Source of the DNA: an uncultured Acidobacteriota bacterium
GTDB taxonomy: Bacteria > Acidobacteriota > Terriglobia > Terriglobales > Acidobacteriaceae
Direction of reading: 5' to 3'
DNA: 64,000 nucleotides
Assembly: GCA_963699695.1 (NCBI GenBank)
Contig: CAVOUU010000004.1
Location: 437,762-501,761 of the forward strand
The notes under the pieces were generated by a model. It did not search any database. It saw nothing but the letters and a program-made list of their open reading frames with translations, and was not told where the DNA came from. This document shows positions 12,804 to 48,516 of this stretch, one piece after another (the stretch's first letter is position 1; every line of letters begins with the position of its first letter). A program made the position numbers and the translations under genes.

Positions 12804-12886
12804 TCTTTCCACGGTTGGAGTTATCAGTTTTCATCAATTCATTTTCAGTTACCCGGATGTCCCATCCGGATCCACTAGGAGTCGAA

Positions 12887-14110
12887 ATGAGTGCAATCAC
12901 ATCTTTTCCCGTTCCCTCCCGTATCTCCGGTGGGGCGTTAATTGCCAGTCCCTCAAGTGCGCTCCGTGAACAAGTGGCATATCGCCTGAACGGGCGCTGG
13001 CTGCCCGTTCATCACGCCCTGGGTGGCGCCGATGCGCTGGTAAAACTGGAGCAAGGCGAGTGGCAGGTATTGTTCCTCGACAGGCGGTTGCCGGACCTGG
13101 ATAGCGATGAGCTGATCGCGATCATCCAGCGTCGCTTTCCAGGCACGCAGGTAGTCCTGCTCGATTCCGACGGAGGCTTCCCCGCCAGAGATGAGGAAAA
13201 GATCGCGCGTCCATTCGTTGCGGAGCCGGTCCAGCAAGTTGCGGAAGAACCGTCAATGCAGCCCGGCGAGCATCCCGCTGAAGAACGTTATTATGAGCCG
13301 CTGCCCGGCATGATCGGAAATAGTCCGGCGATGCAGCGCGTGTATCGTCTTGCCCACTTAGTCGCTCCGCGCACAACGACAGTCCTGATTGTAGGGCAGA
13401 CCGGCAGCGGCAAAGAGCTAGTGGCGCGGGCGCTGCACGCTCTGAGTCCGCGGGCGATGAAGCCGTTTGTGGCCGTGAACTGCGCCGCGATTCCCGAAGC
13501 GCTGCTCGAATCGGAATTGTTTGGCCACGCCCGCGGGGCCTTCACCGGCGCGGTGCAGGCGCAGGTAGGCAGAATTCCCGCAGCGCACGGGGGCACACTG
13601 TTTCTCGACGAAGTCAGCGAGTTGCCTCTCGGCATGCAGGCGAAATTGTTGCGATTTCTGGAGCAGAAAGAGGTGCAGCGTCTTGGCACCTCCGATGTCA
13701 CGCATGTGGATGTGAGAGTGATTGCGGCGAGCAACGTGGATTTGGCAGGGCGCGCAGGGCGGGGCGATTTTCGAGAAGATCTGTTTTATCGCCTTGCGGC
13801 CTTCCCTCTCGAACTTCCGCCTCTGGCCGAGCGTCGCGCCGATATCATTCTACTGGCCGAGCATTTCCTGGCCTGCATGGCCTCTGGTATGGGCCGGCCG
13901 TGCCCGCAATTGAGTGTGGAAACGGTAAGGATTCTCGAAGAGCACCCGTGGAAGGGCAACGTCCGCGAGTTACAGCACGTGATGGAGCGCGCGTCGATTC
14001 TGGTAGAGGATGCCGACACCATCTTGTCCGATCATCTTTATTTCCCCTTCCAGCAAATAGTACAGCCGACGAGTTCCCGCCCACTTTCGTGCGCGGTGCG
14101 GGCCAGTTAA
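12887..14110 (+). CDS. Sigma54 activator (atypical REC + AAA+) lacking a C-terminal HTH
   Basis: Tracked as 12617..14110. I choose ATG 12887 because AGGAG lies 6 nt upstream and the start does not overlap the previous gene. Walker A GQTGSGKE, GAFTGA and the GNVREL region are present. Only about 45 residues follow NVRELQ and none form a Fis-type HTH. Confidence 0.85.
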   Translation: MSAITSFPVPSRISGGALIASPSSALREQVAYRLNGRWLPVHHALGGADALVKLEQGEWQVLFLDRRLPDLDSDELIAIIQRRFPGTQVVLLDSDGGFPARDEEKIARPFVAEPVQQVAEEPSMQPGEHPAEERYYEPLPGMIGNSPAMQRVYRLAHLVAPRTTTVLIVGQTGSGKELVARALHALSPRAMKPFVAVNCAAIPEALLESELFGHARGAFTGAVQAQVGRIPAAHGGTLFLDEVSELPLGMQAKLLRFLEQKEVQRLGTSDVTHVDVRVIAASNVDLAGRAGRGDFREDLFYRLAAFPLELPPLAERRADIILLAEHFLACMASGMGRPCPQLSVETVRILEEHPWKGNVRELQHVMERASILVEDADTILSDHLYFPFQQIVQPTSSRPLSCAVRAS

Positions 14111-24985: not shown

Positions 24986-25079
<94 letters not shown>

Positions 25080-29233: not shown

Positions 29234-29262
29234 TTGACGTTCTTCTGGCTTCTCGTCACAAT
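29234..29262 (+). promoter_or_regulatory. Candidate sigma70-type promoter (TTGACG-17-CACAAT)
   Basis: Hexamer match only, 25 nt upstream of the GTG start at 29287. Confidence 0.25.
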
Positions 29263-29286: not shown

Positions 29287-32200
29287 GTGGCGAAGGGGGT
29301 GTCCTCCATCTCGGGTCTTTCCGGGTACGTGCTGGTGCCCCTCCGAGAAGGCGCGGACTTCACGCTTTACCGGGGTCGACAGCACGGCAACCCATCGTCG
29401 ATCCTGGCGATCGCACTCACGGCCGAACATCCGTCAGCGCAGAGTTTTCGGCGGATCGAGCATGAACTCTCGCTCGCAGCCGAACTCGATCCCGCGTGGG
29501 CAGCCAAGCCTCTGGAACTCACTCGCCACGAAGGGCGGGCAATCCTTGTACTCAAAGATCCTGGAGGCGAGCCACTGGATCTGGTTCTTGAACGGGACCC
29601 GGGACGATTGCTCGATCTGACCCGCGTCTTGCGCATCTCTGTCGGCTTGGCGGTAGCACTCGGCCAAGTCCACCGTCGTGGTCTTATTCATAAGGACATT
29701 AAGCCGGCGAACCTGCTCGTCGACGGCGCCGGCAACGCGTGGCTCACCGGATTCGGAATTGCATCTCGACTGCCGCACGAGCGCCAGTCGCCGGTACCGA
29801 TCGAGATTATTGCTGGCACCCTCGCCTACATGGCGCCGGAACAGACCGGCCGCATGAATCGTTCGATTGATACCCGCAGCGATCTCTACTCGTTGGGCGT
29901 CACTTTGTACGAGCTGCTCACGGGTTCGCTGCCGTTTGCCGCTAACGATCCTCTCGAGTGGATCCACTGCCACATAGCGCGCCAGCCGGCACCGCTTGGC
30001 GATCGCGCCGCAGTCCCCGAGTCGCTGTCAGACATCGTCATGAAGCTCCTCGCCAAAAACGCCGAGGAACGCTATCAGACCGCCTCTGGCCTGGAAGCCG
30101 ACCTCCGGCGGTGCCTGAGCGAGTGGGAATCGCATGCTCGGATCGATCCATTCCCGCTAGCTGCGCGCGACTCATCCGACCAGTTGCTGATTCCCGAGAA
30201 GCTCTACGGGCGGGAGCGCGAGGTCGACGCTCTGCTTGCGGCGTTCGATCGGGTCGTGAACAAGGGTACCCCCGAGCTCGTACTCGTATCTGGTTATGCC
30301 GGCGTCGGAAAATCCTCCCTGGTGAACGAGCTGCACAAAGCGATTGTCTCCAAGCGCGGGCTTTTCGTCTCCGGCAAGTTCGATCAGTACAAGCGCGACG
30401 TCCCATACGCGACTCTTGCACAGGCTTGCCAGAGCTTAGTCCGTCAGATTCTCATTAGAAGTGAAGCGGAGGTCGGCCATTGGCGAAAGGCTCTTCAGGA
30501 CGCTCTGGGGCCGAATGGCCAGCTCATCGTCAACCTCATCCCGGAGGTGGAATTCATTATCGAGAAACAGCAGGCGGTTCCAGACCTGCCGCTGCAAGAT
30601 GCGCAGAACCGCTTTCGGTTGGTGTTTCGGCGGTTCCTCGGGGCGTTCGCGCGGAAGGAGCACCCGCTGGCGCTGTTCCTCGACGATCTGCAATGGATGG
30701 ACGCGGCCAGCCTTGAGCTTCTTGAGTACCTGGTCACGCACTCTGAACTGCAGTATCTGCTGCTGGTGGGCGCCTTTCGGGACAACGAAGCGGGTGCTGC
30801 GCATTCGCTCAAACGGACGCTCGAGTCGATCCGCAAAGCTGGAGCGCGGGTCGAGGAGATCGTGCTTCCGCCTCTCGGACTCGACGACGTTGGCGCGCTC
30901 GTCTCAGACGCGCTGCACTGCACGCCGCAACACGCGTACTCCTTGGTGCAACTGGTGCATGAAAAGACTGCCGGCAATCCATTCTTCGCGATCCACTTTC
31001 TCAGGGCGTTGACCGAGCAAGGGCTGCTCCAGCGCGACCCCGATGCGGGAGCCTGGGTGTGGGACTTGAGTCGGATTCGAGCCCACGGCTACACCGAGAA
31101 CGTCGTGGATCTCATGGTCGAGAAGCTAAAGCGATTGCCAGGCAGCGCGCAGAGGGCCCTACAACAATTCGCTTGTCTTGGAAACGTGTCCGAGATTGCC
31201 AGTCTGAGTCTGGTTTTTGGGAAATCAGAAGAGGCGATCCACGCGTCGTTCTTGGAGGCTGTACGCGCCGGGCTCGTTCTTCCTCTTGATCGCTCCTACG
31301 CTTTTCTCCACGACCGCATTCAGGAGGCGGCGTACGCTCTTATACCAGAAGATAATCGCGCGGGGGAACACCTTCGAATTGGCCGTGTGCTGCTGGCAGG
31401 CATGACCGCGGACCAGTTAGATGAAAATCTGTTCGACGCCGCGAGCCAGCTCAATCGGGGCTCCGCGCTACTCGCCGATCGGAATGAGAAGGCGGACATT
31501 GCGACGATTAACCTGCGTGCTGGCAGAAAGGCGAAGGCGTCAGCTGCTTATGCGTCGGCGCGTGCGTATTTTGCGTCAGGCATAGCTCTGTTAGATGAGC
31601 GGGACTGGACCGAGCAGCACGAGTTGAAATTCAGCCTATCCCTCGAATGTGCGGAGTGTGAGCTTCTCAGCGGTAGCCTGGAAAAGGGTGAGCAAATGAT
31701 TGTGGAGCTGCTGCAACGCGCGGCTTCAGAGATCGAGTTCGCCGATGCCTCCCGCCTCAAGATCAATCTGCATGTATTGACCGGCCAACACTCGCTAGCC
31801 ATCGAGAGCGCGCTCGGATGCCTGCGCCGGTTGGGTATTGACCTGCCGCCGCACCCTGCCTTCGAGCAGGTCCAGGCGGAATACGAGACGGTCTGGCAGG
31901 CCCTTAAGGGGCGTCCGATTGAGAGCCTGATCGACCTGCCGCTGATGACCGATCCAAAACTACACGCAGCCATGCAGGTGCTCTCAGCCCTTGCCGGCCC
32001 TGCCACATTTACCGACTTTCAGTTGTTCTGCCTGCTGGCGTGCCGCATGGTGAGCATCAGCATACAGCACGGGATGAGCGGCGCTTCCGCCTATGCCTAT
32101 GCTTGCCTCGGGTCTGTGCTGGGGCCGAACTTTCACCGTTACCGCGAAGGCTACCGACTGGCCAGGCTTGCCTGCGACCTGGTCGAGAAGCACGCCTACA

Positions 32201-34812
32201 CCGTGTACGACACGAAGGTCTACCATGCCATGGGACTGGCCGCCTTCTGGACGGAGCCGCTCACCAGCGTGATCGAACTCCGTCGAGCGGCCACTCGCAC
32301 CGCCGCTGAGAGAGGCGATCTGACTTTCGCTTGCTACGGCATGCACCAATCCATCACATATTTGCTGATGCGGAACGATCCGCTCGATGCGGTGTGGTTC
32401 GAGTCGGAGATGGCATTGGATTTCGCACGGGCAGCCAAGTTCCGCGATGTCGTGGATCTCCTCCTGAGCCAGCAACGCTTCATTGCGAGCATGCAGGGTC
32501 GTGATGCAACCTCCTCTACCATTAGCGATAAGCAATTAGACGAGGAGGCGTTCGAAGCACAAGTGACGGCCGCGCGGACACCGACCGTGATTTGCTTGTA
32601 CTGGATTCGCAAACTCAAGGCGCGGTACCTCTCAGGCGACTACGTGGAGGCCCAGGCGGCAGCCGACAAGGCGAAGGCGTTGCTTCGGATCTCAACCGTA
32701 CAGTTGCAGCTCTTCGACTACTTTTACTACGCTGCGCTGACGGTGGCGGCGCTCTATGAGGAAGCGTCTGCCGACGAGCAGAGAAACTGGCGCGGAATAC
32801 TCACGGCGCATCAAGAACAACTCCGCGAGTGGGCCGAAAACTATGCGCCCACGTTCTTCGATAAGCACGCTCTGGTGTCAGCGGAGCTCGCGCGCATCGA
32901 AGGGCGGGATGCCGATGCCATGCGTCTGTACGAGGACGCCATTCGATCCGCTCGCGAAAACGGCTTCGTTCAGAATGAGGGCGTCGCCTATGAGGTGGCG
33001 GCACGATTCTACGCAGCGCGCGGCGTCGAGAGCATTGCCCATAAATATCGGCGAGAAGCGCGGGAATGCTACAACCAGTGGGGCGCATTCGGTAAAGTCA
33101 AGCAACTCGAGGAGCGCGACCCGCGCATACGCGAAGCACGCCTTCCCACGTCGCCTGCCTCCACAATCGGCACGCCGGTCCGGGAGTTGGATGCCGAGAC
33201 GGTAGTCAAGGCCTCACAGGCGCTTTCGAGCGAGATTGTCTTGCCTAAGCTGATCGAGACGCTTATGAGAATCGCGGTTGAGCATGCAGGAGCCGAGCGG
33301 GGGCTACTCATCCTTCTGCACGGGGATGAGCCGCGGATCGAGGCGGAGGCCGCCATCGGGTATGGCAAGGTCGAAGTCGCCGCTCGACTGACAGTCATTA
33401 CGCCACTTGATCTCCCCCAATCCGTGCTCCACTACGTCATTCGAACAAGGGAGCGTGTGGTCCTCGACGACGCCTCTGCCGGAAGCTTGTATTCAGAGGA
33501 TGAGTATGTGCGGACTAAGCACTCCAGATCCGTCCTGTGCCTGCCAATCGTCAATCAAGCAAAGATTGCCGGCGTACTGTATCTGGAGAATAATCTGACT
33601 CCGCGCGCTTTCACGTCAGAACGAGTCGCAGTGCTGGAGATGCTGGCTGCGCAAGCCGCAATTTCGCTGGAGAACGCAAAGCTCTATGCTGACCTTCACC
33701 GCAGCGAGGCTTTCCTGGCTCAAGGACAGAACATAAGCCACACGGGCAGCTTCGGCTGGTGCATTTCGAATGGAGAAATCCACTGGTCGGAGGAGACCTA
33801 CACGATCTTTGGGTATGACCGAACGCTGAAACCCACATTGGAATTAATATTCCAGCGAATTCATCCCGACGACAGAGATCCCGTGCAGCACACCATTGGC
33901 CGCGCGATCGAGGCATCGGCGAATCTTGATTTTGAGCATCGTTTGCTGATGCCGGACGGTTCGATCAAGTACCTCCATGTTTTAGCTCGCGCAGGGGAGA
34001 CTTCCTCGGGCTCTCTCGAATATGTGGGTACCGTGATGGATGTCACCGAACGCAAGCGGGCGGAGAAAGAGCGCGAGCGACTGCTCCAGGTACAAGCCGA
34101 TCTTGCGCACTTAAGTCGCGTGTCTACGATGGGCGAGTTGACGGCCTCTCTAGCACACGAAATCAAACAGCCCATTTCCGCAGCAGCAATGAACGCTAAG
34201 ACCTGCTTGCGATGGCTTGGCCGTGAGGAACCCGACCTGCCAGAGGCGTGCGAAGCGGCGTCAAGAATCGTCAAAGACGTAAGGCGCGCGGCCGACATCA
34301 TTGACAGAATCAGCTCGCTGGTCAAGAAGGTGACTTTGCAGAGGGAATTGGTTGATGTAAATGAACTGGTTCGAGAAATGATTTCGCTGCTGAGCAGCGA
34401 AACGAATCTTTACTCCATCTCAATCAGTACCGAGCTTGCTGAGAACCTTCCCCAGGTGACGGCGGACCGTGTACAACTGCAACAGGTTTTCATGAACCTG
34501 ATGCTTAACGCGATCGATGCCATGAAGGAAATGAGTGGCGGAAGTGAACTCACTATCAAGTCGGAAGTCGAAGATGGTCAACTGCTGATCTCGGTCAGCG
34601 ATACCGGTGTGGGACTGCCCGAGGAGCATGGAGAAAAGATTTTCAAGGCATTCTATACCACCAAGCCTCACGGCACCGGAATGGGACTTCGCATCAGTCA
34701 GTCAATCATCGAGTCACATGGCGGCCGGCTGTGGGCGGCCAGCAACTCTCCGCGCGGCGCCAGTTTCTATTTCACCCTGCCCTTTGCCGGCGCGGCGCAG
34801 CAGATCGCGTAG
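29287..34812 (+). CDS. 1,841-aa fusion: Hanks-kinase-like domain + AAA_16/STAND NTPase + helical repeats + GAF + PAS + HisKA/HATPase histidine kinase
   Basis: Kinase-like N-terminus (HKDIKPANLL, GTLAYMAPEQ). Walker A GYAGVGKSS and Walker B LALFLDDLQWMD. GAF region (LLILLHGDEP, LCLPIVNQAKIAGVLYLEN). PAS region (GSFGWCISNGEIHWSEETYTIFGY). H-box HEIKQPISA, N-box MNLMLNAIDAM, G1 DTGVGL and G2 GTGMGLRISQSIIESHGG. Confidence 0.9.
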   Translation: MAKGVSSISGLSGYVLVPLREGADFTLYRGRQHGNPSSILAIALTAEHPSAQSFRRIEHELSLAAELDPAWAAKPLELTRHEGRAILVLKDPGGEPLDLVLERDPGRLLDLTRVLRISVGLAVALGQVHRRGLIHKDIKPANLLVDGAGNAWLTGFGIASRLPHERQSPVPIEIIAGTLAYMAPEQTGRMNRSIDTRSDLYSLGVTLYELLTGSLPFAANDPLEWIHCHIARQPAPLGDRAAVPESLSDIVMKLLAKNAEERYQTASGLEADLRRCLSEWESHARIDPFPLAARDSSDQLLIPEKLYGREREVDALLAAFDRVVNKGTPELVLVSGYAGVGKSSLVNELHKAIVSKRGLFVSGKFDQYKRDVPYATLAQACQSLVRQILIRSEAEVGHWRKALQDALGPNGQLIVNLIPEVEFIIEKQQAVPDLPLQDAQNRFRLVFRRFLGAFARKEHPLALFLDDLQWMDAASLELLEYLVTHSELQYLLLVGAFRDNEAGAAHSLKRTLESIRKAGARVEEIVLPPLGLDDVGALVSDALHCTPQHAYSLVQLVHEKTAGNPFFAIHFLRALTEQGLLQRDPDAGAWVWDLSRIRAHGYTENVVDLMVEKLKRLPGSAQRALQQFACLGNVSEIASLSLVFGKSEEAIHASFLEAVRAGLVLPLDRSYAFLHDRIQEAAYALIPEDNRAGEHLRIGRVLLAGMTADQLDENLFDAASQLNRGSALLADRNEKADIATINLRAGRKAKASAAYASARAYFASGIALLDERDWTEQHELKFSLSLECAECELLSGSLEKGEQMIVELLQRAASEIEFADASRLKINLHVLTGQHSLAIESALGCLRRLGIDLPPHPAFEQVQAEYETVWQALKGRPIESLIDLPLMTDPKLHAAMQVLSALAGPATFTDFQLFCLLACRMVSISIQHGMSGASAYAYACLGSVLGPNFHRYREGYRLARLACDLVEKHAYTVYDTKVYHAMGLAAFWTEPLTSVIELRRAATRTAAERGDLTFACYGMHQSITYLLMRNDPLDAVWFESEMALDFARAAKFRDVVDLLLSQQRFIASMQGRDATSSTISDKQLDEEAFEAQVTAARTPTVICLYWIRKLKARYLSGDYVEAQAAADKAKALLRISTVQLQLFDYFYYAALTVAALYEEASADEQRNWRGILTAHQEQLREWAENYAPTFFDKHALVSAELARIEGRDADAMRLYEDAIRSARENGFVQNEGVAYEVAARFYAARGVESIAHKYRREARECYNQWGAFGKVKQLEERDPRIREARLPTSPASTIGTPVRELDAETVVKASQALSSEIVLPKLIETLMRIAVEHAGAERGLLILLHGDEPRIEAEAAIGYGKVEVAARLTVITPLDLPQSVLHYVIRTRERVVLDDASAGSLYSEDEYVRTKHSRSVLCLPIVNQAKIAGVLYLENNLTPRAFTSERVAVLEMLAAQAAISLENAKLYADLHRSEAFLAQGQNISHTGSFGWCISNGEIHWSEETYTIFGYDRTLKPTLELIFQRIHPDDRDPVQHTIGRAIEASANLDFEHRLLMPDGSIKYLHVLARAGETSSGSLEYVGTVMDVTERKRAEKERERLLQVQADLAHLSRVSTMGELTASLAHEIKQPISAAAMNAKTCLRWLGREEPDLPEACEAASRIVKDVRRAADIIDRISSLVKKVTLQRELVDVNELVREMISLLSSETNLYSISISTELAENLPQVTADRVQLQQVFMNLMLNAIDAMKEMSGGSELTIKSEVEDGQLLISVSDTGVGLPEEHGEKIFKAFYTTKPHGTGMGLRISQSIIESHGGRLWAASNSPRGASFYFTLPFAGAAQQIA

Positions 34813-35060: not shown

Positions 35061-37478
35061 ATGACATCCAACTCAACTCCGCACAGCGTGGGCGCGAGCG
35101 ACAGTTCGGACCCTAAGGCCGCCTTCGACGCAAGCGCTACTCCCAGGGAATCTATTGCGCCCAATCTAGGTTCGATTGGGCCCTATCGCCTGATCAGGAA
35201 ATTGGGAGAGGGCGGGATGGGAGAGGTGTGGCTGGCGGAACAGTCTGCTCCCGTCAAACGGCAGGTTGGGCTGAAGATCATCAAAGCAGCCCGCTCCGAC
35301 AAGTCCGCATTGATACGCTTTGATCTGGAGCGGCAGGCGCTGGCCTTGATGGATCACCCTGCCATCGCCAAGGTTTTCGACGCCGGTTCCACGGCCGACG
35401 GCCAGCCGTACTTTGCCATGGAGTACGTGCAGGGCCTGCCCATCACCGAATACTGCGACGAGAAGCGTCTTTCTCCTAGCGAGCGCCTGCTTATTTTCAC
35501 AAAAGTATGTGAAGGCGTGCAGCACGCGCATCAGAAAGCAATTATTCATCGCGACCTGAAACCCACGAACATTCTGGTGGTTGAAGTGGATGGCAAGCCC
35601 GTGCCGCGCATTATCGACTTCGGACTGGCCAAAGCGATCTCCGAGCAAACGCAACGCGGGACGCTGGTGACGCGCGCCGGGGGGTTGGTGGGCACGCCCG
35701 GGTATATGAGCCCGGAGCAGATGGATCCCATTGCGGCCGATGTAGATACCCGAAGCGACGTCTATTCGCTCGGCGTCGTGCTCTACGAACTGCTTACGGG
35801 AGTGTTGGCCCTGGATGCCCAGCAGTGGGAGAGCAAACCTTTTCATGAAGTTCTGCGGCGGGTGCACGAAGAGGAGCCGACGAGTCCGAGCACAAGACTC
35901 ATCACAGACCCGGCCGCGGCGGCCATTGCGGAAAAAAGGAGCACGGACCCTCGGCAACTGGCAAACATGCTGCGCGGCGATCTGGACTGGATCACCTTGA
36001 AAGCTCTGGAGAGAGACCGCGCCCGCAGGTATGGCACGCCTGCGGAACTGGCGGACGATCTCGGACGCTATCTGCGCAACGAACCTGTGATTGCGCGGCC
36101 TGCAAGCCTGGTTTACCGGACCAAGAAATACGTTCAACGCCACAAGTTCGGAGTGGCGGCGGCCACCGCTGTGGCAATGCTGCTGATCGCGTTCGGAGTG
36201 ATGCAGGCGATCGAGTTGCGGAGGATTACGCGGGAGCGTGACCGCGCCGACCGCGTTACAAAGTTTATGACCGGCATGTTCAAAGTATCGAACCCCAGCG
36301 AGGCGCGCGGCAACGCAATCACAGCGCGCGAGATTCTTGAGAAGTCCTCGAAAGATATCGACACTGGTTTGCGCAAGGACCCGGAGCTGCAGGCCCAATT
36401 GATGGGAACCATGGCGCAGACGTATGCCGGACTGGGCTTGTATGGCCGCTCGCAAGATTTGGTAGAACGCGCGCGCGCAATTCAAAGCTCAATGTTCGGA
36501 GAACGAAGCAGGGAAACACTGGCAAGCGAAAGTTATCTGGCCCAGCTCCTCCGCGCCCAAGGGCATTTGCCAGAGGCGGAAAAGTTGTTGCAAAGCACGC
36601 TCGAGGCCCAGCGCCAGGTTCTCGGTCCTAATGATCCAGACACTCTGGCGTCTATGGATCGCCTCGGCTATGTTTATGCTAATGAAGCGCGTCACACCGA
36701 CGCTGAAAGCATGTTTCGCCAAACACTGAACGCGGAGCGCAAAGTACTTGGCCCGGACGATCCTCAAACCCTGAGCACTTTGAACGAGCTGGCAGAAATT
36801 CTGACCCCGCAGGGGCGGTATGCGGAAGCAGATCAGATTTATGGCGAACTGGTCGCGGCACAGGAGCGAACTCTCGGGCCGGACCATCCCGCGACCCTGC
36901 TTTCGATGTCACACGCGGCTGAAAATCTTGAGGAGGAGGGCCGCTTCCCAGACGCTGAAAAGCTATATTCCAACGTGATTGCCGCTCAGCGTCGCGTACT
37001 TGGGCCGGAACATCCCCAAACCCTTAGGGCGATGACGATGCTTGCTCTCACCATGGCGAAGGAAGGCCGTTATTCCGAAGCGGACAAACTCCAGAGTCAA
37101 GTGATCGAGATCAAGACCCGCGTGCTGGGGCCAACCCACACTTCCACATTGCAGAGCATGGAAATGGAAGCGCTGGGCCTCAGCCGCGAGGGCCGTTATG
37201 CCGACGCGGAGAAAATGTTTCGCGATGTAATCGAGACAGCAGGAAAGACGAATCAGCCGGCAACAGTGGCCGAAGCTTGGTACAACTTTGCCTGCGCTGA
37301 GGCGGCGAGAGGTCGGCCGGACGAAGCCTTCGCGGACCTGAACCACGCCATCGAGAACGGTCTCATCTCGCCGGGAGAACTTTCAGCGGATCCTGAATTG
37401 AAATCTCTCCACGGCGATCTGCGATTCGACGCCTTGGTCGCCAAGGCACGCGAAACGATCAGCGCGAGAAAAAAGTAG
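35061..37478 (+). CDS. Membrane Ser/Thr protein kinase (canonical Hanks type) with C-terminal TPR repeats
   Basis: 805 aa. GEGGMGEV, VGLKIIK, HRDLKPTNIL, DFGLAK and GTPGYMSPEQ. One TM helix (VAAATAVAMLLIAFGVMQAI), then about 8 TPR_10/12-like repeats (LGPNDPDTLASM, LGPDHPATLLSM, LGPEHPQTLRAM). Confidence 0.92.
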   Translation: MTSNSTPHSVGASDSSDPKAAFDASATPRESIAPNLGSIGPYRLIRKLGEGGMGEVWLAEQSAPVKRQVGLKIIKAARSDKSALIRFDLERQALALMDHPAIAKVFDAGSTADGQPYFAMEYVQGLPITEYCDEKRLSPSERLLIFTKVCEGVQHAHQKAIIHRDLKPTNILVVEVDGKPVPRIIDFGLAKAISEQTQRGTLVTRAGGLVGTPGYMSPEQMDPIAADVDTRSDVYSLGVVLYELLTGVLALDAQQWESKPFHEVLRRVHEEEPTSPSTRLITDPAAAAIAEKRSTDPRQLANMLRGDLDWITLKALERDRARRYGTPAELADDLGRYLRNEPVIARPASLVYRTKKYVQRHKFGVAAATAVAMLLIAFGVMQAIELRRITRERDRADRVTKFMTGMFKVSNPSEARGNAITAREILEKSSKDIDTGLRKDPELQAQLMGTMAQTYAGLGLYGRSQDLVERARAIQSSMFGERSRETLASESYLAQLLRAQGHLPEAEKLLQSTLEAQRQVLGPNDPDTLASMDRLGYVYANEARHTDAESMFRQTLNAERKVLGPDDPQTLSTLNELAEILTPQGRYAEADQIYGELVAAQERTLGPDHPATLLSMSHAAENLEEEGRFPDAEKLYSNVIAAQRRVLGPEHPQTLRAMTMLALTMAKEGRYSEADKLQSQVIEIKTRVLGPTHTSTLQSMEMEALGLSREGRYADAEKMFRDVIETAGKTNQPATVAEAWYNFACAEAARGRPDEAFADLNHAIENGLISPGELSADPELKSLHGDLRFDALVAKARETISARKK

Positions 37479-37659: not shown

Positions 37660-38535
37660 TCACAACCTATAACGGCCAGCGAGAACCTCTGCCCGGGTCG
37701 GGAAAGAAATAGTGCATCCGGTTTGCCCCCACTGATTGCCGCAATTGAGGCAGCGAAACTGCGGGCCAATGTCTGTGACTGATTTGCCCTGGCATGCGGG
37801 ACATGGAGGAAGAGCACGGTAGCGCCGAAGGTTCCTTTCTTGGCCTTGTCGGATTCCAATTCCAGCCATTTAAAGAACCCGTCGTACTTGGAACCGCTTT
37901 TGATCCAGTCCAAGGCTTGCGATGTCGAGTCGCACTGATCGTCGAATTTGCCCTTCGGAAAGCTGGTCATTTCATGCAGGTATTCGGCCAGCCATTCTGC
38001 TTTGTCAGGAAGGTGAACAAAGCCGTTCTCGATCGTGCTGGTAACCGAGTGCAGGCGCATTGATCTTCTCGAGCTTCGGCTCGTAGCGAGTTACGGCATG
38101 CAGCCCCTCGTGGCGCAATTCCTGAATCAGCTGGGCACCTGAGCTTTTGTCTTCGATCAAGATGGTTGTGGCCTTGAACCGGTTCGCCTGCTCTCGCACA
38201 GCACGTTTCAATTCCGGATACTCCATCCGGCGACGTAGAACATGCAACAAATAGAGATTGTTCTCTTTCTTTCCCCACGTCGTGCAGACGCTATAGTCAC
38301 TGAGTTCCGTCGCCTTGACAGCCGTGTCCCAGCTTTGGAAAACGAGGTCGAACTTTGAGGATTCGTCGCCGACTTTGTACGTTTTGAACCATGCCAGTTT
38401 GACCATGCCGCCACCGAGAGGAGCCGGCTCCTGTTGATATTGCCCCGAGAAGTTGTATTCGCCCTGTATGGCACGAATGTTCGCGAGAACATCGAGCGAC
38501 TCGCGCCCCGGATGTAGAGCCTCTACGCCGTGCCT
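37660..38535 (-). pseudogene. Phage terminase large-subunit remnant (C-terminal nuclease half, 5'-truncated, at least two frameshifts)
   Basis: Reading starts directly after the hisA stop: RHGVEALHPGRESLDVLANIRAIQGEYNFSGQYQQEPAPLGGGMVKLAWFKTY. It continues in ORF 38005..38406 and shifts frame near 38050 into ORF 37638..38060 (IENGFVHLPDKAEWLAEYLHEMTSFPKGKFDDQCDSTSQALDW). A third frame, 37660..37869, carries a CPAC...CLNC zinc ribbon. No ATPase domain is present. Confidence 0.7.
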
Positions 38536-45190: not shown

Positions 45191-47314
45191 TTAATCGCGG
45201 TTTCGCGGCTGGCGAATTGTTACGTTCCGCTCCGGCAGAGCCTCAAGGGTCACGACCTCGAATGGTCCCAGCGTGAAGGTATGTTGCTGTCCAGCTGCGA
45301 GCGCCAGTGGAGTAGCTGTTCTGTCTTGCGTCCAACGGTTACGCGCCATAAATCGGCCGGGCACCCCTGAAGGTAGCTCAAAAGCCTGCCCGACGTCGAT
45401 CACGATGCTCTGACCCTTGTCGCTCGGATTTCGCAGCGTGAGTATGGCTTTCGCTGGCGACCAGGCGGCCCACCCGTAAATTTTCAACTTGCCTGGGTCG
45501 CCGCCTACCCAATGTGTGTCTCTTAGAACCTCTGCGTTTTGTCGTGACCAATTCGCCGCTTCCGCAAGCACATCCCAATCCTTCTTTAAGAGGAGCGAGT
45601 GCGAAATATATAACTCCTGAAGTTGAGTTCCGCTACCGAAGTACGAATGGACTTCATTTTCGAAGTCGCTTCCCTGGTCGCTATCCAGATGTTCTGCCTG
45701 CCTGGCGTAAATCAGCCCGTGCAACATGAGCGAATTCAAGGGAAAGAGCGGACCGGCTTGCACAACGTTCTGATAGGTCTGCGCGTCCCTGTAAGTGATC
45801 CATTTCTCGCGCCAGGTTCCGACTCCGGTAAAGCTGTGGTCGTCTCCTCCTCGCCAGATCGAGTCGGCGTAGCGCAACCAGAACGGTGAAGGATAGGTTC
45901 CAGTGGTGAGGTTGACGAAGAGGTCTGGCTTTTCTGCGCGCCACTCCTCGATCAAACGGATGGCCGCTGCAAAGTCACTATCGAAACTACTGCCGGGGAA
46001 AACGCTGTCGACATTGCCGGTGCCGTCAATTTTGAACTGGTTGATTCCGTCCTTGATGAAATCGAGGGAAACCTCCCGGAACCGGGAGTAGTACTTTGGG
46101 CCGGAGAGAGCAAACCCTCCTGCATTGGTTTCGAAACCGTGACTTTGGCCGAAGTCGATGCGCCGCTGCTTTGCTTCTTCATAGCCTCCCCATGGGGAGA
46201 GCCATATTCCCATCGCCGCACCATATTTTTGCGCGGCCTGATTTAAAGGACGAATGCCTTCTGGGAACCCCGCATTCATCTGCCACGTCGAACTTGGATT
46301 GTCCCAGCCATCATCGAGAAGAAAGGAATCCAACTTCACGTTGCGCCGGCGAACCAGTTCGGTTCCGAAAGCGTGGATGACATCGAGCACCGCGGCCGCA
46401 TCGTACGGCTTGCCGTAGCCAATGTCGTACCACGAGTTGTAGTGGAGAAATGTTCGGTAGGGATGAGCTCGCTCGCGCTCAATGTAGTTGAGAAATCCGC
46501 GGCGCATTTGGCCGGCAGGTGACACTCCGATAACTAGGGAATATTCGACGGTTTGGCCCTTCGTCAGGGGTAGTTCCCGCTTGATAGTGCAAGTTACAGT
46601 GTTTGTCGCCTGGCACACGGCCAAGGGATTTTCGAATCCGAGAAATAAGTTTCCGGCGGTGACGGGAGAGCCTTTGACTTTCCCAATCACTCTCGCTCGT
46701 GGCAGGCTCCCATCGAATAAACTCACTTCGACAATTGGCTCATCGCTATCCGGCGCCGAGAGCGAGATCTCTTCCCGAATATAGTTCGAATCGTCGCGGA
46801 GCACGACGCGCCAGACGATGGAAACGCTTCTCTTCGTCTCTTGCTCTGTTTTTTGCTTCTCTTCAGATTCTCTGCCGAGGTATTGCAGGCGGAGAGAAAT
46901 AGCTTTGCCCGCAAAATGATCGCCTGCGCGCGATGCTCTGGGGTTCGATGGCAGATCCTCAATCTGTGGACCGCCGGTGATGACCATGTCGGAGGCGTGG
47001 ACTGTCGTCCCATCTTTGAAGGTGAAGCTGAAGGCATCGCGCGGAAGAGAGACCAGCGTCCTGGTGCTTTGGGCTGCCAGCGTGACAGCGGTCAGCTTAC
47101 CTTCGGCGACCGACCATTGCGCCTGGATCTTCTGGTTCGCTAACGAGAGAACTCCGACTCGTATCTGCGCATTTGCTTTTCCCGCAGAAATTCCGTAGAG
47201 CACGGGAGTCTGTCCCGCTGCGAGGGAACAAACATAGAGGAGGAACACGACGAGCCCTGCTCTCAGTTTCCATGCAATTGCAGAGGCGGAAATCGGCATT
47301 CTGCTTGTCAGCAT
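45191..47314 (-). CDS. Secreted clan GH-D-like glycosidase (alpha-galactosidase / alpha-N-acetylgalactosaminidase-like)
   Basis: Tracked to 47911. The start is set at ATG 47314 (MLTSRMPISASAIAWKLRAGLVVFLLYVCSLAAGQ signal), which shares its A with the agaS TGA. Catalytic-domain hallmarks are FLLDDGWDN and KIDGTGN. Confidence 0.75.
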   Translation of the reverse strand: MLTSRMPISASAIAWKLRAGLVVFLLYVCSLAAGQTPVLYGISAGKANAQIRVGVLSLANQKIQAQWSVAEGKLTAVTLAAQSTRTLVSLPRDAFSFTFKDGTTVHASDMVITGGPQIEDLPSNPRASRAGDHFAGKAISLRLQYLGRESEEKQKTEQETKRSVSIVWRVVLRDDSNYIREEISLSAPDSDEPIVEVSLFDGSLPRARVIGKVKGSPVTAGNLFLGFENPLAVCQATNTVTCTIKRELPLTKGQTVEYSLVIGVSPAGQMRRGFLNYIERERAHPYRTFLHYNSWYDIGYGKPYDAAAVLDVIHAFGTELVRRRNVKLDSFLLDDGWDNPSSTWQMNAGFPEGIRPLNQAAQKYGAAMGIWLSPWGGYEEAKQRRIDFGQSHGFETNAGGFALSGPKYYSRFREVSLDFIKDGINQFKIDGTGNVDSVFPGSSFDSDFAAAIRLIEEWRAEKPDLFVNLTTGTYPSPFWLRYADSIWRGGDDHSFTGVGTWREKWITYRDAQTYQNVVQAGPLFPLNSLMLHGLIYARQAEHLDSDQGSDFENEVHSYFGSGTQLQELYISHSLLLKKDWDVLAEAANWSRQNAEVLRDTHWVGGDPGKLKIYGWAAWSPAKAILTLRNPSDKGQSIVIDVGQAFELPSGVPGRFMARNRWTQDRTATPLALAAGQQHTFTLGPFEVVTLEALPERNVTIRQPRNRD

Positions 47315-48516
47315 CAGTAAATGTTTACGTGAGACACAACCCGGCTGATGGCGCCATTCGGGCTGGGACAATCTGGCTGAAGACCCAGCCGCAAAGAACT
47401 GAACAGCCCCAATAGCTGGGCCAGCATCACGTCCAAGGGCGCGCGGTATGCGTCGGCAAGGTCGGGCGTATTCAAACAAAGCACATGATCTGCCAGCCCC
47501 CCGATCTGGTTTGTCGACTCCGGGGTTACCACCACCAAGAGCTTTACCAGCCGCTTTCTGTGTACTTCTTCGATCAGGTCCAGTTCGTACTTCCTGCGGC
47601 GCTGATCGCCAGAAAGAAAACTTACCAATACGGTGTTCTCGTCCAACACCGACATGGGGCCGTGGCGGAGGCCAAGTGAAGACTCCGACAAGGTAGTGAT
47701 TTTGCCGGCGGTCAGTTCCAGCAGCTTCAGGGCAGACTCGCGTGCCACGGCTTGCAGCACTCCGGAACCCACAAAAACGGCCCTGGAGAAATCCTCCTGC
47801 GCAATCGCAGCGGCAACTTCCTGGGCGCGCTCGAGAAAACGCTCTCCCGCTTGCTGCAGCACAGAAAAGGTATCGACGTAATCGCCGGGAGAATTTACAT
47901 GTGCAACGCAATGGCCGGCAATCACCATGTTCGTGAAAGAGCTGGTCATTGCCAGCCCGCGGTCGTTCGCCGTGTCGTCCAAGGCGAGCACAAAGGCCCG
48001 CTGGGGCGTCTTCTCACAAACGGCTGCCATCCGGCCTTGTCTGTTGCAGGTCACAATCAGGTGCCGCACTTTGGGATATCTTTCGATCGCGGCCTCGAGG
48101 ACGGCCAATCCTTCCGAACTTTCGCCGGAGCGCGAAAACGAGATCCACAAGTACGGCCGATCGGCAAAGACCAAGTCGTCAAGGTTTGTCAGAAGATCGG
48201 TACTGGGAACTGCCGACACCTCACATCCCCAGAGCTTTCGCAGCAAAGGTATCAGAGCCCGACCGACGTAATCGGATGTGCCGGCGCCCACGAGGTAGAC
48301 GTTAGGCCGAAGCGAGGGTTCTTCTCCGACTCCCGCTCCCTTGAGGAACTGAACTAGGTCCGGCCGTCGCTGGTGGCAAATCTCGTAGGTTTTCCGCCAA
48401 GTCTCGGGCTGACGCAGAATCTCGAGCGGAGTGTACCTGATGCCGCGGTCTTCCTTCTCCTTCTCGCTTGCCTCGACTAATGTTCGGAGCCCGTCCATGA
48501 CGTTTCGTTGAATCAA
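47314..48516 (-). CDS. agaS: Galactosamine-6-phosphate deaminase/isomerase AgaS (double SIS domain)
   Basis: 400 aa, collinear with E. coli AgaS as I recall it: LVGAGTSDYVG, SAVPSTDLLTN, ISFSRSGESSE, DRGLAMTSSFT, ARESALKLLELTAGK, GLRHGPMS and a C-terminal ISRVV. TTG start with AGGAGGG upstream. Confidence 0.85.
   Translation of the reverse strand: MIQRNVMDGLRTLVEASEKEKEDRGIRYTPLEILRQPETWRKTYEICHQRRPDLVQFLKGAGVGEEPSLRPNVYLVGAGTSDYVGRALIPLLRKLWGCEVSAVPSTDLLTNLDDLVFADRPYLWISFSRSGESSEGLAVLEAAIERYPKVRHLIVTCNRQGRMAAVCEKTPQRAFVLALDDTANDRGLAMTSSFTNMVIAGHCVAHVNSPGDYVDTFSVLQQAGERFLERAQEVAAAIAQEDFSRAVFVGSGVLQAVARESALKLLELTAGKITTLSESSLGLRHGPMSVLDENTVLVSFLSGDQRRRKYELDLIEEVHRKRLVKLLVVVTPESTNQIGGLADHVLCLNTPDLADAYRAPLDVMLAQLLGLFSSLRLGLQPDCPSPNGAISRVVSHVNIY

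What the first reader, a model, noticed from the sequence alone, without database searches (positions are those of the whole stretch)
29287..30150. N-terminal Hanks-kinase domain of the 1,841-aa fusion lacks three ATP/Mg-binding hallmarks (likely pseudokinase)
The catalytic-loop motif is retained as HKDIKPANLL (29689-29697 encodes HKD), and the APE motif is present (GTLAYMAPEQ). Three other elements are missing:
- The Gly-rich loop is absent (PLREGADFTLYRG in its place).
- The VAIK lysine position reads ILAIALT.
- The DFG motif reads GFG (29749-29757).

The neighbouring gene 35061..37478 keeps every canonical motif (GEGGMGEV, LKIIK, HRDLKP, DFG), so the divergence is specific to this protein. 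A degenerate kinase domain fused to a STAND NTPase and a GAF-PAS histidine kinase would act as a scaffold or sensor rather than a phosphotransferase. It might also use a non-canonical ATP-binding mode.
Basis: partly seen in the sequence, partly recalled or inferred. Interest (0 to 1): 0.6.

Follow-up and report, generated by a model that had tools for sequence, protein, structure and literature searches.

The report
Conserved pseudokinase head of STAND histidine kinase
The kinase-like head of this 1,841-residue sensor protein really lacks the residues needed to bind ATP and magnesium, but this is the conserved signature of a large, already catalogued family of soil-bacterial signalling proteins, not a peculiarity of this gene.

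Summary
HKD is at 29689-29697 and GFG at 29749-29757. The beta3 lysine position is Ile42, only one glycine of GxGxxG is left, and APE is kept. The neighbouring gene 35061-37478 is a fully canonical kinase.

The trait is family-wide, not private:
- Gly replaces the DFG Asp in 120 of 121 close relatives and in 136 of 142 representatives of 50%-identity clusters.
- The beta3 Lys is absent in 121 of 121 close relatives and present in at most 11 of 142 representatives.
- The catalytic Asp, the catalytic-loop Asn, the APE Glu and the alphaC Glu are kept.
- Further family hallmarks are a proline at the adenine-binding hinge position and Leu replacing the VAIK Ala.

The domain is as conserved as the protein's enzymatic domains. 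AlphaFold2 gives a complete kinase fold (pLDDT 91.6, closest to PknB).

The architecture matches the published CP1 family: kinase-like head, AAA_16/COG3899 ATPase, helical arm, GAF, then a histidine-kinase or sigma54 output. NCBI names it a "trifunctional kinase". Its relatives are the cyanobacterial dual kinases and the fungal group X kinases.

Best reading: a non-phosphorylating regulatory or docking head. Non-canonical nucleotide binding is not excluded. This is a new member of a known kind, of modest interest.

The parts
29287..34812 (+). Whole gene, 1841 aa: pseudokinase, AAA_16 (STAND-type) NTPase, helical arm, GAF, PAS, HisKA, HATPase_c. Cytosolic, with no transmembrane-like segment.
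   Evidence: ORF and translation. Pfam. Hydropathy maximum 1.51 over 19 residues.
29234..29262 (+). Promoter-like site TTGACG-17-CACAAT in the 77-nt gap after the TonB-receptor-like gene. Weak evidence.
   Evidence: Consensus scan, 9 of 12 matches.
29326..30141 (+). Hanks-fold pseudokinase domain, residues 14-285.
   Evidence: Pfam Pkinase 88.5 bits against a cut-off of 31.7. AlphaFold2 pLDDT 91.6, pTM 0.91. Foldseek best match PknB, TM 0.84 normalised to the target.
29341..29370 (+). Remnant of the Gly-rich loop, LREGADFTLY. G1 is Arg20, G2 is kept as Gly22, G3 is Phe25, and the beta2 Val is Leu27. Arg29 follows and is invariant in the family.
   Evidence: Alignment and tallies.
29401..29418 (+). 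Strand beta3, ILAIAL. The VAIK Ala is Leu40 and the VAIK Lys is Ile42 (codon 29410-29412).
   Evidence: DNA. Tallies: Lys absent in 121/121 close relatives, Leu40 in 121/121. Predicted strand 38-44.
29464..29466 (+). alphaC Glu60, retained although its usual partner Lys is gone.
   Evidence: E in 121/121 close relatives and 107/142 representatives.
29560..29562 (+). Hinge residue at gatekeeper+3, Pro92, within DPGGEPL. In canonical kinases this backbone NH binds adenine N1.
   Evidence: P in 120/121 close relatives and 105/142 representatives, against L, V or I in 14/14 kinases of the same genome. The role of this position comes from general kinase knowledge.
29689..29712 (+). Catalytic loop HKDIKPAN. 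Asp137, Lys139 and Asn142 are retained. It is a 'KD' loop, not an 'RD' loop.
   Evidence: DNA. D in 120/121 and 135/142, N in 121/121 and 112/142.
29749..29757 (+). GFG in place of DFG. The Mg-binding Asp is Gly155, and the regulatory-spine Phe156 is kept.
   Evidence: DNA. G in 120/121 and 136/142. PknB alignment.
29833..29862 (+). APE motif followed by the family-specific QTGRMNR, with Arg189, Asn191 and Arg192 nearly invariant.
29965..29982 (+). alphaG helix segment HCHIAR, with His227, Cys228, His229 and Arg232 nearly invariant. Together with Cys276 and Trp280 in the C-terminal helix, it is a candidate family-specific interface.
   Evidence: Conservation. Helices 222-231 and 266-283 in the model. 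The interface role is inferred.
30199..30768 (+). AAA_16 NTPase domain with Walker A GYAGVGKS (residue 336) and Walker B ALFLDD (residue 462).
   Evidence: Pfam 160.8 bits. Motif search. The model of residues 1-800 shows an alpha/beta domain followed by helical regions with short beta hairpins that I read as winged-helix-like.
30769..33186 (+). Long helical arm with a weak TPR_CHK1 match at residues 1105-1229. It is the least conserved part of the protein.
   Evidence: Pfam 25.8 bits, below the cut-off of 27. Per-domain identity. No relative in the PDB by sequence.
33247..34032 (+). GAF (residues 1321-1461) and PAS_3 (1498-1582) sensor domains.
   Evidence: Pfam.
34129..34788 (+). Histidine-kinase core: HisKA with His1624, and HATPase_c with N box at 1737, G1 at 1772 and G2 at 1796. 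All are intact.
   Evidence: Pfam. Motifs.
35061..37478 (+). Neighbouring canonical membrane Ser/Thr kinase with a TPR array. It serves as the comparison and is not a conserved partner of the family.
   Evidence: Translation and Pfam. Transmembrane segment near residue 363. No kinase cluster recurs among the neighbours of 80 related loci.

Best explanation
The N-terminal domain is an evolutionarily fixed pseudokinase. It has a complete Hanks fold, but its canonical ATP/Mg site has been dismantled and probably filled in:
- The Gly loop is lost.
- The beta3 Lys is Ile.
- The DFG Asp is Gly.
- The hinge NH donor is Pro.
- The two adenine-sandwiching residues are enlarged, Val to Leu27 and Ala to Leu40.

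It does not phosphorylate proteins in the canonical way. It serves as the regulatory or docking head of a STAND-type switch.

The conserved input cassette is pseudokinase, AAA_16 NTPase, helical arm and GAF. It is joined to a histidine-kinase output, as here, or to a sigma54-activator output. In the inferred model, signals read by GAF, PAS and the helical arm, together with the nucleotide state of the AAA_16 domain, change how the head packs or pairs, and this gates autophosphorylation at His1624. The kept regulatory-spine residues (His135, Phe156), the alphaC Glu, the catalytic loop and APE would hold the domain in one defined, active-like shape that is used as an interaction surface.

Shown here: the motif losses, their conservation, the fold, and the domain cassette. 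Inferred: the filled pocket, the absence of activity, and the coupling mechanism.
For: 1. Motif losses were verified on the DNA and by alignment to 14 kinases of the same genome.
2. The losses are fixed across the family. GFG is in 120/121 close relatives and 136/142 cluster representatives. The Lys is absent in 121/121 close relatives.
3. Pro92 at gatekeeper+3 is in 120/121, Leu40 for the VAIK Ala in 121/121, and Leu27 and Phe25 are conserved.
4. No conserved Lys exists in the N-lobe. Its only invariant basic residue is Arg29.
5. The fold is intact: pLDDT 91.6, pTM 0.91, best match PknB.
6. Purifying selection is strong. The domain shows median identity 0.81, against 0.77 for AAA_16 and 0.73 for the histidine-kinase core, in close full-length relatives. 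It stays among the best conserved parts in distant ones.
7. Close relatives of the same head (75-84% identical) carry either histidine-kinase or sigma54 outputs. All long members carry AAA_16 and GAF.
8. The published CP1 family has the same description (PMC12599244; bioRxiv 10.1101/2025.01.12.632604).
9. Deleting the kinase-like plus AAA_16 region of the fungal homologue Chk1 gives the full-deletion phenotype, so the head is functionally needed there (PMC9069115).
Against: - No activity or binding assay exists for any member of this clade.
- The catalytic Asp137, Lys139 and Asn142 are conserved more strongly than a pure scaffold would seem to need.
- Arg29 in beta2 is invariant. It resembles the beta2 arginines proposed to support metal-independent ATP binding in the sister DLHK family (PMC12599244).
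- GFG alone does not abolish catalysis in CASK (my own knowledge).
- I could not inspect model coordinates, so 'pocket filled' rests on alignment positions only.
- pTM of the 800-residue model is only 0.71, so the packing of head against NTPase is not established.
Confidence: 0.62

Rival explanations
1. The domain is a non-canonical enzyme or nucleotide binder. It still binds ATP or another nucleotide without the beta3 Lys, the Gly loop and the DFG Asp. Binding would use Arg29 (and Arg31) of beta2 with the kept Asp137, Lys139 and Asn142. It would either phosphorylate in a metal-independent way, as ULK4, CASK or WNK do, or carry out a different reaction.
For: - Asp137, Lys139, Asn142 and APE are strongly conserved.
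- Arg29 is invariant in 121/121 close relatives and 115/122 aligned representatives.
- The sister DLHK family has the same AVLT, HRD..N and GFG pattern, and an arginine-lined site has been modelled for it (PMC12599244).
Against: - Pro at the hinge NH-donor position and Leu for the VAIK Ala both argue against adenine binding in the normal pose.
- Arg31 is variable in the wider family.
- No biochemical precedent exists within this family.
Confidence: 0.2
2. The degenerate cleft has become a ligand pocket, so the head is itself a sensor of a small hydrophobic or redox-active molecule. It would feed the STAND switch in parallel with GAF and PAS.
For: - The cleft lining is hydrophobic and conserved: Leu19, Phe25, Leu27, Leu40, Leu89, Pro92 and Leu144.
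- His227, Cys228, His229 and Cys276 are nearly invariant.
- Fungal group X homologues are linked to peroxide adaptation (PMC6324907, PMC9069115).
Against: - The same residues are explained more simply as a self-filled pocket.
- The His and Cys residues lie on alphaG and the C-terminal helix, not in the cleft. In a helix they face different directions.
- No ligand is known.
Confidence: 0.1
3. The alignment is misleading, and the domain is an ordinary active Ser/Thr kinase, as the NCBI product name 'trifunctional serine/threonine-protein kinase...' implies.
For: - The Pfam Pkinase match is well above its threshold.
- The product name is used in RefSeq.
- A few distant relatives keep the beta3 Lys (VLIK or VLLK), and two keep both Lys and DFG.
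Against: - Predicted strand beta3 (residues 38-44) has no basic residue.
- GFG aligns unambiguously with the DFG of PknB.
- The Pfam match starts only at profile position 41, so the ATP-binding N-lobe motifs are not matched.
Confidence: 0.03
4. The domain is a decaying relic with no function of its own.
For: It has lost several catalytic hallmarks.
Against: - It is among the most conserved parts of the protein.
- It is 70-72% identical to the best Pseudomonadota loci (Bradyrhizobium, Steroidobacteraceae) and 54-79% to other phyla.
- Its predicted fold is intact and confident.
- Many family-specific residues are invariant.
Confidence: 0.02

Closest known systems
CP1 family of bacterial Ser/Thr kinases and pseudokinases (O'Boyle, Kannan and co-workers; bioRxiv 10.1101/2025.01.12.632604; review PMC12599244)
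   Same: It is cytosolic and always fused to a COG3899-type predicted ATPase, often with FhlA-like (GAF plus sigma54) or PAS modules. It has HK-type catalytic loops and VL(I/L)K-type beta3. A large fraction of members lack the VAIK Lys (34%) and the DFG Asp (17%).
   Different: The published description names cyanobacteria and proteobacteria. This clade also sits in Acidobacteriota, Verrucomicrobiota, Planctomycetota and others. Here the loss of Lys and of the DFG Asp is nearly universal, while the HxD Asp is kept. The hinge Pro and the Ala-to-Leu change are not mentioned in the texts I read. Formal assignment by their constraint model could not be run.
Cyanobacterial 'dual protein kinases' (cbSTKIII: HstK/Alr2258, Pkn40, Pkn41; PMC2176072)
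   Same: An N-terminal Hanks domain of the 'KD' (HKD) type, then GAF and sometimes PAS, then a HisKA/HATPase_c output.
   Different: The cyanobacterial members mostly keep the beta3 Lys and the DFG Asp. They read DFS, and the alphaC Glu is often Gln. They are treated as putative active kinases.
Fungal group X hybrid histidine kinases (Candida albicans Chk1, Schizosaccharomyces pombe Mak2 and Mak3; PMC9069115, PMC6324907)
   Same: The order is Ser/Thr-kinase-related domain, AAA_16, helical region (Pfam TPR_CHK1 is named after it), GAF, HisKA, HATPase_c. The N-terminal region is needed for function in Chk1.
   Different: The fungal proteins are hybrid kinases with a C-terminal receiver domain and long N-terminal extensions. 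They are linked to peroxide response and morphogenesis. The TPR_CHK1 match here is below threshold. I did not examine their kinase motifs.
DLHK bacterial pseudokinases (PMC12599244)
   Same: The motif pattern is nearly the same: no beta3 Lys (AVLT), the HxD Asp kept, GFG instead of DFG, and conserved arginines in beta2. It is described as the sister family of CP1.
   Different: DLHK members are fused to DEAD-like helicase and DNA2 domains, not to COG3899, GAF and a histidine kinase. They also have an extra catalytic-loop Arg, where this protein has the canonical Lys139.
Mycobacterium tuberculosis PknK and other STAND regulators with an N-terminal effector domain (general knowledge; PknK is named as a multi-domain family in the atlas preprint)
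   Same: A Hanks domain sits at the N-terminus of an AAA_16 NTPase with a helical C-terminal arm.
   Different: PknK is an active kinase with canonical motifs and has no GAF or histidine-kinase output.
Eukaryotic precedents: CASK (GFG, Mg-independent), ULK4 and WNK (displaced or absent beta3 Lys), and KSR/RAF Ala-to-Phe pocket-filling mutants (my own knowledge, not checked here)
   Same: They show what each single change can mean: activity without the DFG Asp, ATP binding without the beta3 Lys, and a filled adenine pocket that locks a scaffold-competent closed state.
   Different: None combines all the changes seen here, and none is fused to a STAND NTPase. The resemblance is a lead only.

Membership tests
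Hanks-type (ePK-like) protein kinase fold, Pfam PF00069 | Profile match above the curated threshold | tested here: met
   88.5 bits against a cut-off of 31.7. Only profile positions 41-257 are matched.
Hanks-type (ePK-like) protein kinase fold, Pfam PF00069 | Bilobal fold with beta1-beta5, alphaC and the C-lobe helices | tested here: met
   AlphaFold2 pLDDT 91.6, pTM 0.91. Foldseek best match PknB over about 278 columns, TM 0.84 normalised to the target.
Catalytically competent Hanks kinase | beta3 (VAIK) Lys | tested here: not met
   Ile42. No Lys or Arg in predicted strand 38-44.
Catalytically competent Hanks kinase | DFG Asp (Mg binding) | tested here: not met
   Gly155, codon GGA at 29749-29751.
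Catalytically competent Hanks kinase | Gly-rich loop GxGxxG | tested here: not met
   R20-E-G22-A-D-F25.
Catalytically competent Hanks kinase | HRD catalytic Asp and catalytic-loop Asn | tested here: met
   Asp137 and Asn142 are present and conserved.
Pseudokinase (sequence definition: lacks at least one of the VAIK Lys, HRD Asp and DFG Asp) | At least one of the three residues is missing, in a conserved way | tested here: met
   Two of three are missing, in 120-121 of 121 close relatives and most cluster representatives.
Pseudokinase (functional definition) | No phosphotransfer activity and/or no nucleotide binding | not testable with these tools
   This needs purified protein: thermal shift, 32P assay.
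CP1 bacterial STK family | Kinase-like domain fused to a COG3899-type ATPase | tested here: met
   AAA_16 at 305-494 plus a helical arm. AAA_16 is found in all long relatives.
CP1 bacterial STK family | No transmembrane region | tested here: met
   Maximum 19-residue hydropathy is 1.51. The neighbouring membrane kinase scores 2.28.
CP1 bacterial STK family | Frequent FhlA-like (GAF plus sigma54) or PAS partner domains | tested here: met
   GAF and PAS are present here. Sigma54 outputs occur in 60/109 close relatives.
CP1 bacterial STK family | Family-specific residue constraints of the authors' Bayesian classification | not testable with these tools
   The model and the representative WP_248060551.1 are not available here. 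Indirect support: HK-type catalytic loop and VL(I/L)K-type beta3 in distant relatives, as in the review's Leptospira CP1 examples.
STAND-type signalling NTPase | Walker A and Walker B in a P-loop domain, followed by helical and winged-helix modules and a repeat arm | tested here: inconclusive
   Walker A GYAGVGKS and Walker B ALFLDD are present. In the 800-residue model I read the secondary-structure order as NBD, helical, then winged-helix-like. The nSTAND Pfam matches are below threshold, and no PDB relative is found by sequence.
Two-component sensor histidine kinase | HisKA with phospho-acceptor His, and HATPase_c with N, G1 and G2 boxes | tested here: met
   His1624, N box 1737, G1 1772, G2 1796.
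Two-component sensor histidine kinase | Cognate response regulator encoded next to it | tested here: not met
   None found flanking the gene between the TonB-receptor-like gene and the his operon (25.6-44.5 kb). Only 6/48 related histidine-kinase-type loci have one directly downstream.
Fungal group X hybrid histidine kinase | C-terminal receiver domain (hybrid kinase) | tested here: not met
   The protein ends 7 residues after HATPase_c, and there is no Response_reg match.

The most novel reading that the evidence does not exclude
The head is not inert. One form of this reading is a naturally 'ATP-mimicking', permanently closed kinase fold, with Leu27, Leu40, Phe25 and Pro92 fusing the catalytic spine. 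Its catalytic loop and alphaG surface would recruit and present a partner when the STAND NTPase oligomerises. That would be a bacterial counterpart of KSR/RAF-type pseudokinase scaffolding, wired directly to His-Asp or sigma54 signalling. The other form is a metal-independent nucleotide-dependent activity through Arg29, Asp137, Lys139 and Asn142.
Probability: 0.15. Interest if true: 0.65.

Novelty: new member of a known kind. Interest (0 to 1): 0.3.

Why it matters
RefSeq names these proteins [quoted passage not shown]. For this clade the first function is very probably wrong, and the name spreads to thousands of soil-bacterial genes.

The family is very large. More than 580 genome loci were found across at least seven phyla, and 111 plasmids carry a member. 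Yet no bacterial member has been tested.

The pseudokinase head is as conserved as the enzymatic domains and is shared by histidine-kinase and sigma54 outputs. It must therefore do something important in how STAND-type switches drive bacterial signalling. A single thermal-shift and autophosphorylation experiment on one member would settle whether this clade binds nucleotide.

The finding adds an acidobacterial member and a sharper residue signature. It does not add a new kind of system.

Tried and rejected
1. Looked for a displaced Lys or Asp. No conserved Lys exists in the N-lobe, and the only invariant basic residue there is Arg29. This rejects a hidden canonical site.

2. Asked whether the adjacent canonical kinase (35061-37478) is a conserved partner. 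No kinase cluster recurs among the neighbours of 80 related loci. Rejected.

3. My first neighbour clustering suggested a response regulator in 41/80 loci. On checking, that was a loose single-linkage cluster of receiver-containing proteins. Only 6/48 histidine-kinase-type loci have one directly downstream. The claim is withdrawn, and orphan status is typical.

4. Tested for an 'empty site' between the amylase gene and hisA in genomes of the same genus, to show insertion of the tRNA-Ser block. Synteny is not conserved, and the species are too diverged, with HisA only 56-64% identical. Inconclusive.

5. Ran Foldseek with the 800-residue model to find a solved kinase-plus-NOD structure. Only kinase domains matched. 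A phmmer search of residues 301-1100 against the PDB gave nothing.

6. Considered His227-Cys228-His229 as a metal site. It is unlikely, because consecutive helix residues face different directions and Cys228 and His229 replace buried small or hydrophobic residues of ordinary kinases. Kept only as a possible interface.

8. Literature searches for the RefSeq product name and for COG3899 found no functional study of a bacterial member.

Full report
**Observation.** The ORF 29287..34812 (+) encodes 1841 residues from a GTG that is the first possible start after an in-frame stop. Its N-terminus matches that of homologues, several of which also begin V-A-T/K. On the DNA:
- HKD is CAT AAG GAC at 29689-29697.
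- GFG is GGA TTC GGA at 29749-29757.
- M-APE is at 29830-29841.
- ILAIAL is at 29401-29418.

Pfam finds Pkinase (88.5 bits), AAA_16, GAF, PAS_3, HisKA and HATPase_c. The Pkinase match begins only at profile position 41, so the ATP-binding start of the N-lobe is not matched. The next gene, 35061..37478, has every canonical motif.

**Placement of the missing residues.** I aligned the domain and 262 relatives with 14 ordinary Hanks kinases taken from the same genome.
- GxGxxG corresponds to R20-E-G22-A-D-F25.
- VAxK corresponds to I39-L40-A41-I42.
- The alphaC Glu is kept (Glu60).
- HRDxKxxN reads H135-K-D137-I-K139-P-A-N142.
- DFG reads G155-F-G.
- APE, the alphaF Asp199 and Arg262 are kept.

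PknB aligns VDFGIA with TGFGIA. An AlphaFold2 model of residues 1-300 is confident (pLDDT 91.6, pTM 0.91). It has the usual strands, beta1 at 14-21, beta2 at 25-32 and beta3 at 38-44, and alphaC at 51-62. Strand beta3 contains no basic residue. Foldseek places the model closest to PknB over about 278 columns (TM 0.84 normalised to the target). That condition is not met.

**The trait is fixed in the family.**

| Position | 121 closest proteins (75-84% identical over the first 300 residues; includes the query and its database copy) | 142 representatives of 50%-identity clusters |
|---|---|---|
| DFG Asp | Gly in 120 | Gly in 136 |
| beta3 Lys | absent in 121 | Lys in at most 11 |
| Catalytic Asp | present in 120 | present in 135 |
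| Catalytic-loop Asn | present in 121 | present in 112 |
| APE Glu | present in 121 | present in 141 |
| alphaC Glu | present in 121 | present in 107 |

- Pro92 at the gatekeeper+3 hinge position is in 120/121. The 14 own-genome kinases have Leu, Val or Ile there.
- Leu40 replaces the VAIK Ala in 121/121.
- Leu27 replaces the beta2 Val, and Phe25 sits at the third glycine position.
- Arg29 is invariant.

From general kinase knowledge, the hinge residue at that position donates its backbone NH to adenine N1, and proline cannot. The beta2 Val and the VAIK Ala sandwich the adenine ring. Enlarging both suggests a self-filled pocket. This is inference, because I could not open the model coordinates.

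A few distant representatives still read VLIK or VLLK with GFG, and two keep both Lys and DFG. The losses were therefore stepwise from an active ancestor.

**Selection.** In 76 full-length histidine-kinase-type relatives, the pseudokinase domain is at least as conserved as the enzymatic parts. The helical arm and PAS diverge much faster. In the distant sets the head stays at 0.51-0.58, against 0.30-0.52 for the arm.

| Region | Median identity in the close set |
|---|---|
| Pseudokinase domain | 0.81 |
| AAA_16 | 0.77 |
| Histidine-kinase core | 0.73 |
| Helical arm | 0.62-0.70 |

Family-specific near-invariant residues cluster in three places:
- After APE: T187, G188, R189, N191, R192.
- On helix alphaG: H227, C228, H229, R232.
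- In the helix that leads out of the domain: C276, W280.

A decaying relic is excluded.

**What the whole protein is.**
- Walker A (GYAGVGKS, residue 336) and Walker B (ALFLDD, residue 462) are intact.
- The histidine-kinase core has His1624 and the N, G1 and G2 boxes.
- There is no transmembrane-like segment.
- A model of residues 1-800 (pLDDT 85.4, pTM 0.71) shows an alpha/beta nucleotide-binding domain after the kinase fold. Helical regions with short beta hairpins follow, which I read as winged-helix-like, and then a helical arm. I read this as a STAND-type layout.
- No solved structure matches this part by sequence, and Foldseek finds only kinase domains.

Every long relative carries AAA_16 and GAF. 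The outputs differ.

| Sample | Histidine kinase | Sigma54 activator |
|---|---|---|
| Close relatives (109) | 40 | 60 |
| Cluster representatives (82) | 67 | 0 |
| Genome loci (63) | 50 | 8 |

The head, NTPase, arm and GAF thus form one conserved input cassette that is plugged onto different outputs.

**Distribution and context.**
- The window's genome (4.96 Mb, 6 contigs) has one copy plus 23 ordinary Hanks kinases at 28-40% identity.
- Only one of 18 genomes of the same genus has a copy, at 70% identity, and none of 12 in the order does.
- In a 301-genome sample of the phylum, 2 have one, including the window's own genome. That search scored at most 7 candidates per genome, so it is a lower bound.
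- More than 580 loci were found in species genomes. They span Acidobacteriaceae (Granulicella MAG 78%, Tunturiibacter 74%), Bradyrhizobium (72%), Steroidobacteraceae, Paraburkholderia, Rhizobium, Verrucomicrobiota, Planctomycetota and others.
- 111 plasmids carry a member, and 42 of them are conjugative.
- A maximum-likelihood tree places the window's protein in a well supported clade that is mostly Acidobacteriaceae. Elsewhere the phyla interleave. For example, an Acidobacteriota MAG pairs with Bradyrhizobium lablabi at 100/100 support. This points to horizontal spread, though MAG binning errors cannot be excluded.
- In the window, the gene lies in a block that starts after tRNA-Ser(GCU) at 24986-25079. 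I could not prove insertion.
- No response regulator is encoded next to the gene. This is typical, since only 6 of 48 histidine-kinase-type loci have one directly downstream. That result corrects my first, too generous neighbour count.
- The adjacent canonical kinase is not a recurrent neighbour.

**What is already known.**
- The atlas of bacterial Ser/Thr kinases (bioRxiv 10.1101/2025.01.12.632604) and its review (PMC12599244) define the CP1 family. It is cytosolic and always linked to a COG3899 predicted ATPase, often with FhlA-like or PAS modules. In CP1, 34% of members lack the VAIK Lys, 37% the HRD Asp and 17% the DFG Asp. No function is known.
- The sister DLHK family reads AVLT, HRD..N and GFG. 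An arginine-lined, metal-independent ATP site has been modelled for it.
- The cyanobacterial 'dual protein kinases' (cbSTKIII, HstK, Pkn40/41) are the Lys- and Asp-keeping 'KD' branch (PMC2176072).
- Fungal group X hybrid histidine kinases (Chk1, Mak2/3) share the kinase-related, AAA_16, GAF and histidine-kinase order. They need the N-terminal region for function (PMC9069115, PMC6324907).
- RefSeq names the bacterial proteins 'trifunctional serine/threonine-protein kinase/ATP-binding protein/sensor histidine kinase' or 'AAA family ATPase'.
- Other first-stage notes flagged the same signature in other genomes. These are not independent evidence, but they fit the tallies I made myself.

**Mechanism.** My best reading has confidence of about 0.6. 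The head is a non-phosphorylating, conformationally fixed kinase fold that acts as the regulatory or docking module of a STAND switch. The switch gates His1624 autophosphorylation here, or sigma54 activation in paralogous architectures.

Shown: the losses, their fixation, the intact fold, the strong constraint, and the shared cassette. Inferred: pocket occlusion, lack of activity, and the coupling.

The main rival, at about 0.2, is non-canonical nucleotide binding or catalysis through Arg29 and the kept Asp137, Lys139 and Asn142. The conservation of the catalytic loop keeps this alive. A ligand-sensing pocket (about 0.1), a misaligned active kinase (0.03) and a relic (0.02) are less likely.

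**Verdict.** The feature is the hallmark of a described family, and this gene is a new, acidobacterial member of it. The useful additions are:
- a sharper signature: GFG, no beta3 Lys, hinge Pro, Leu for the VAIK Ala, invariant Arg29;
- evidence of strong constraint;
- the wider phyletic range and mobility of the family;
- the point that the RefSeq product name overstates the first 'function'.

Interest is modest.

Noticed in passing
G000 contig C1, 521216-524698 (locus L021): A second, unrelated degenerate Hanks kinase in the same genome. It reads LSKSATGVVY for the Gly loop, keeps VALKV, and has FHYSLEP instead of HRD and LGYGVS instead of DFG. It is a pseudokinase candidate of a different type that keeps the Lys.
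   Followed up: no
window 24986-25079 and 38005-38406: tRNA-Ser(GCU) lies upstream, and a Terminase_6C fragment (PF17289, E = 5.8e-10) lies downstream. Together they bracket the block that holds the TonB-receptor-like gene, the 1841-aa sensor and the STK-TPR gene. This fits a decayed integrated element and the patchy distribution of the sensor gene within the genus.
   Followed up: partly
loci L028 and L029; L078 and L096: Pairs of very close family members sit in different phyla. An Acidobacteriota MAG pairs with Bradyrhizobium lablabi (branch lengths 0.03 and 0.07, support 100/100). A Bryobacterales MAG pairs with a Verrucomicrobiae MAG. This is either recent horizontal transfer or MAG binning error.
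   Followed up: no
loci L061, L088, L099, L025; proteins P0126 and P0241: Some genomes carry two family genes side by side. Some proteins carry an extra, weaker-scoring kinase domain in front of the family-type head.
   Followed up: no
plasmid records, e.g. NZ_CP082165.1 59931-65363 (locus L105): The family is present on 111 plasmids, mostly Rhizobium and Paraburkholderia megaplasmids, and 42 are predicted conjugative. In the Bradyrhizobium plasmid, the gene sits next to an integrase gene.
   Followed up: no
window 45191-47911 (-): A 906-aa ORF has no Pfam match at E <= 0.001.
   Followed up: no
window 12617-14110 (+): A sigma54 activator has only a weak, sub-threshold receiver match (21.5 bits against a cut-off of 30.2) and no HTH_8 match in Pfam.
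   Followed up: no
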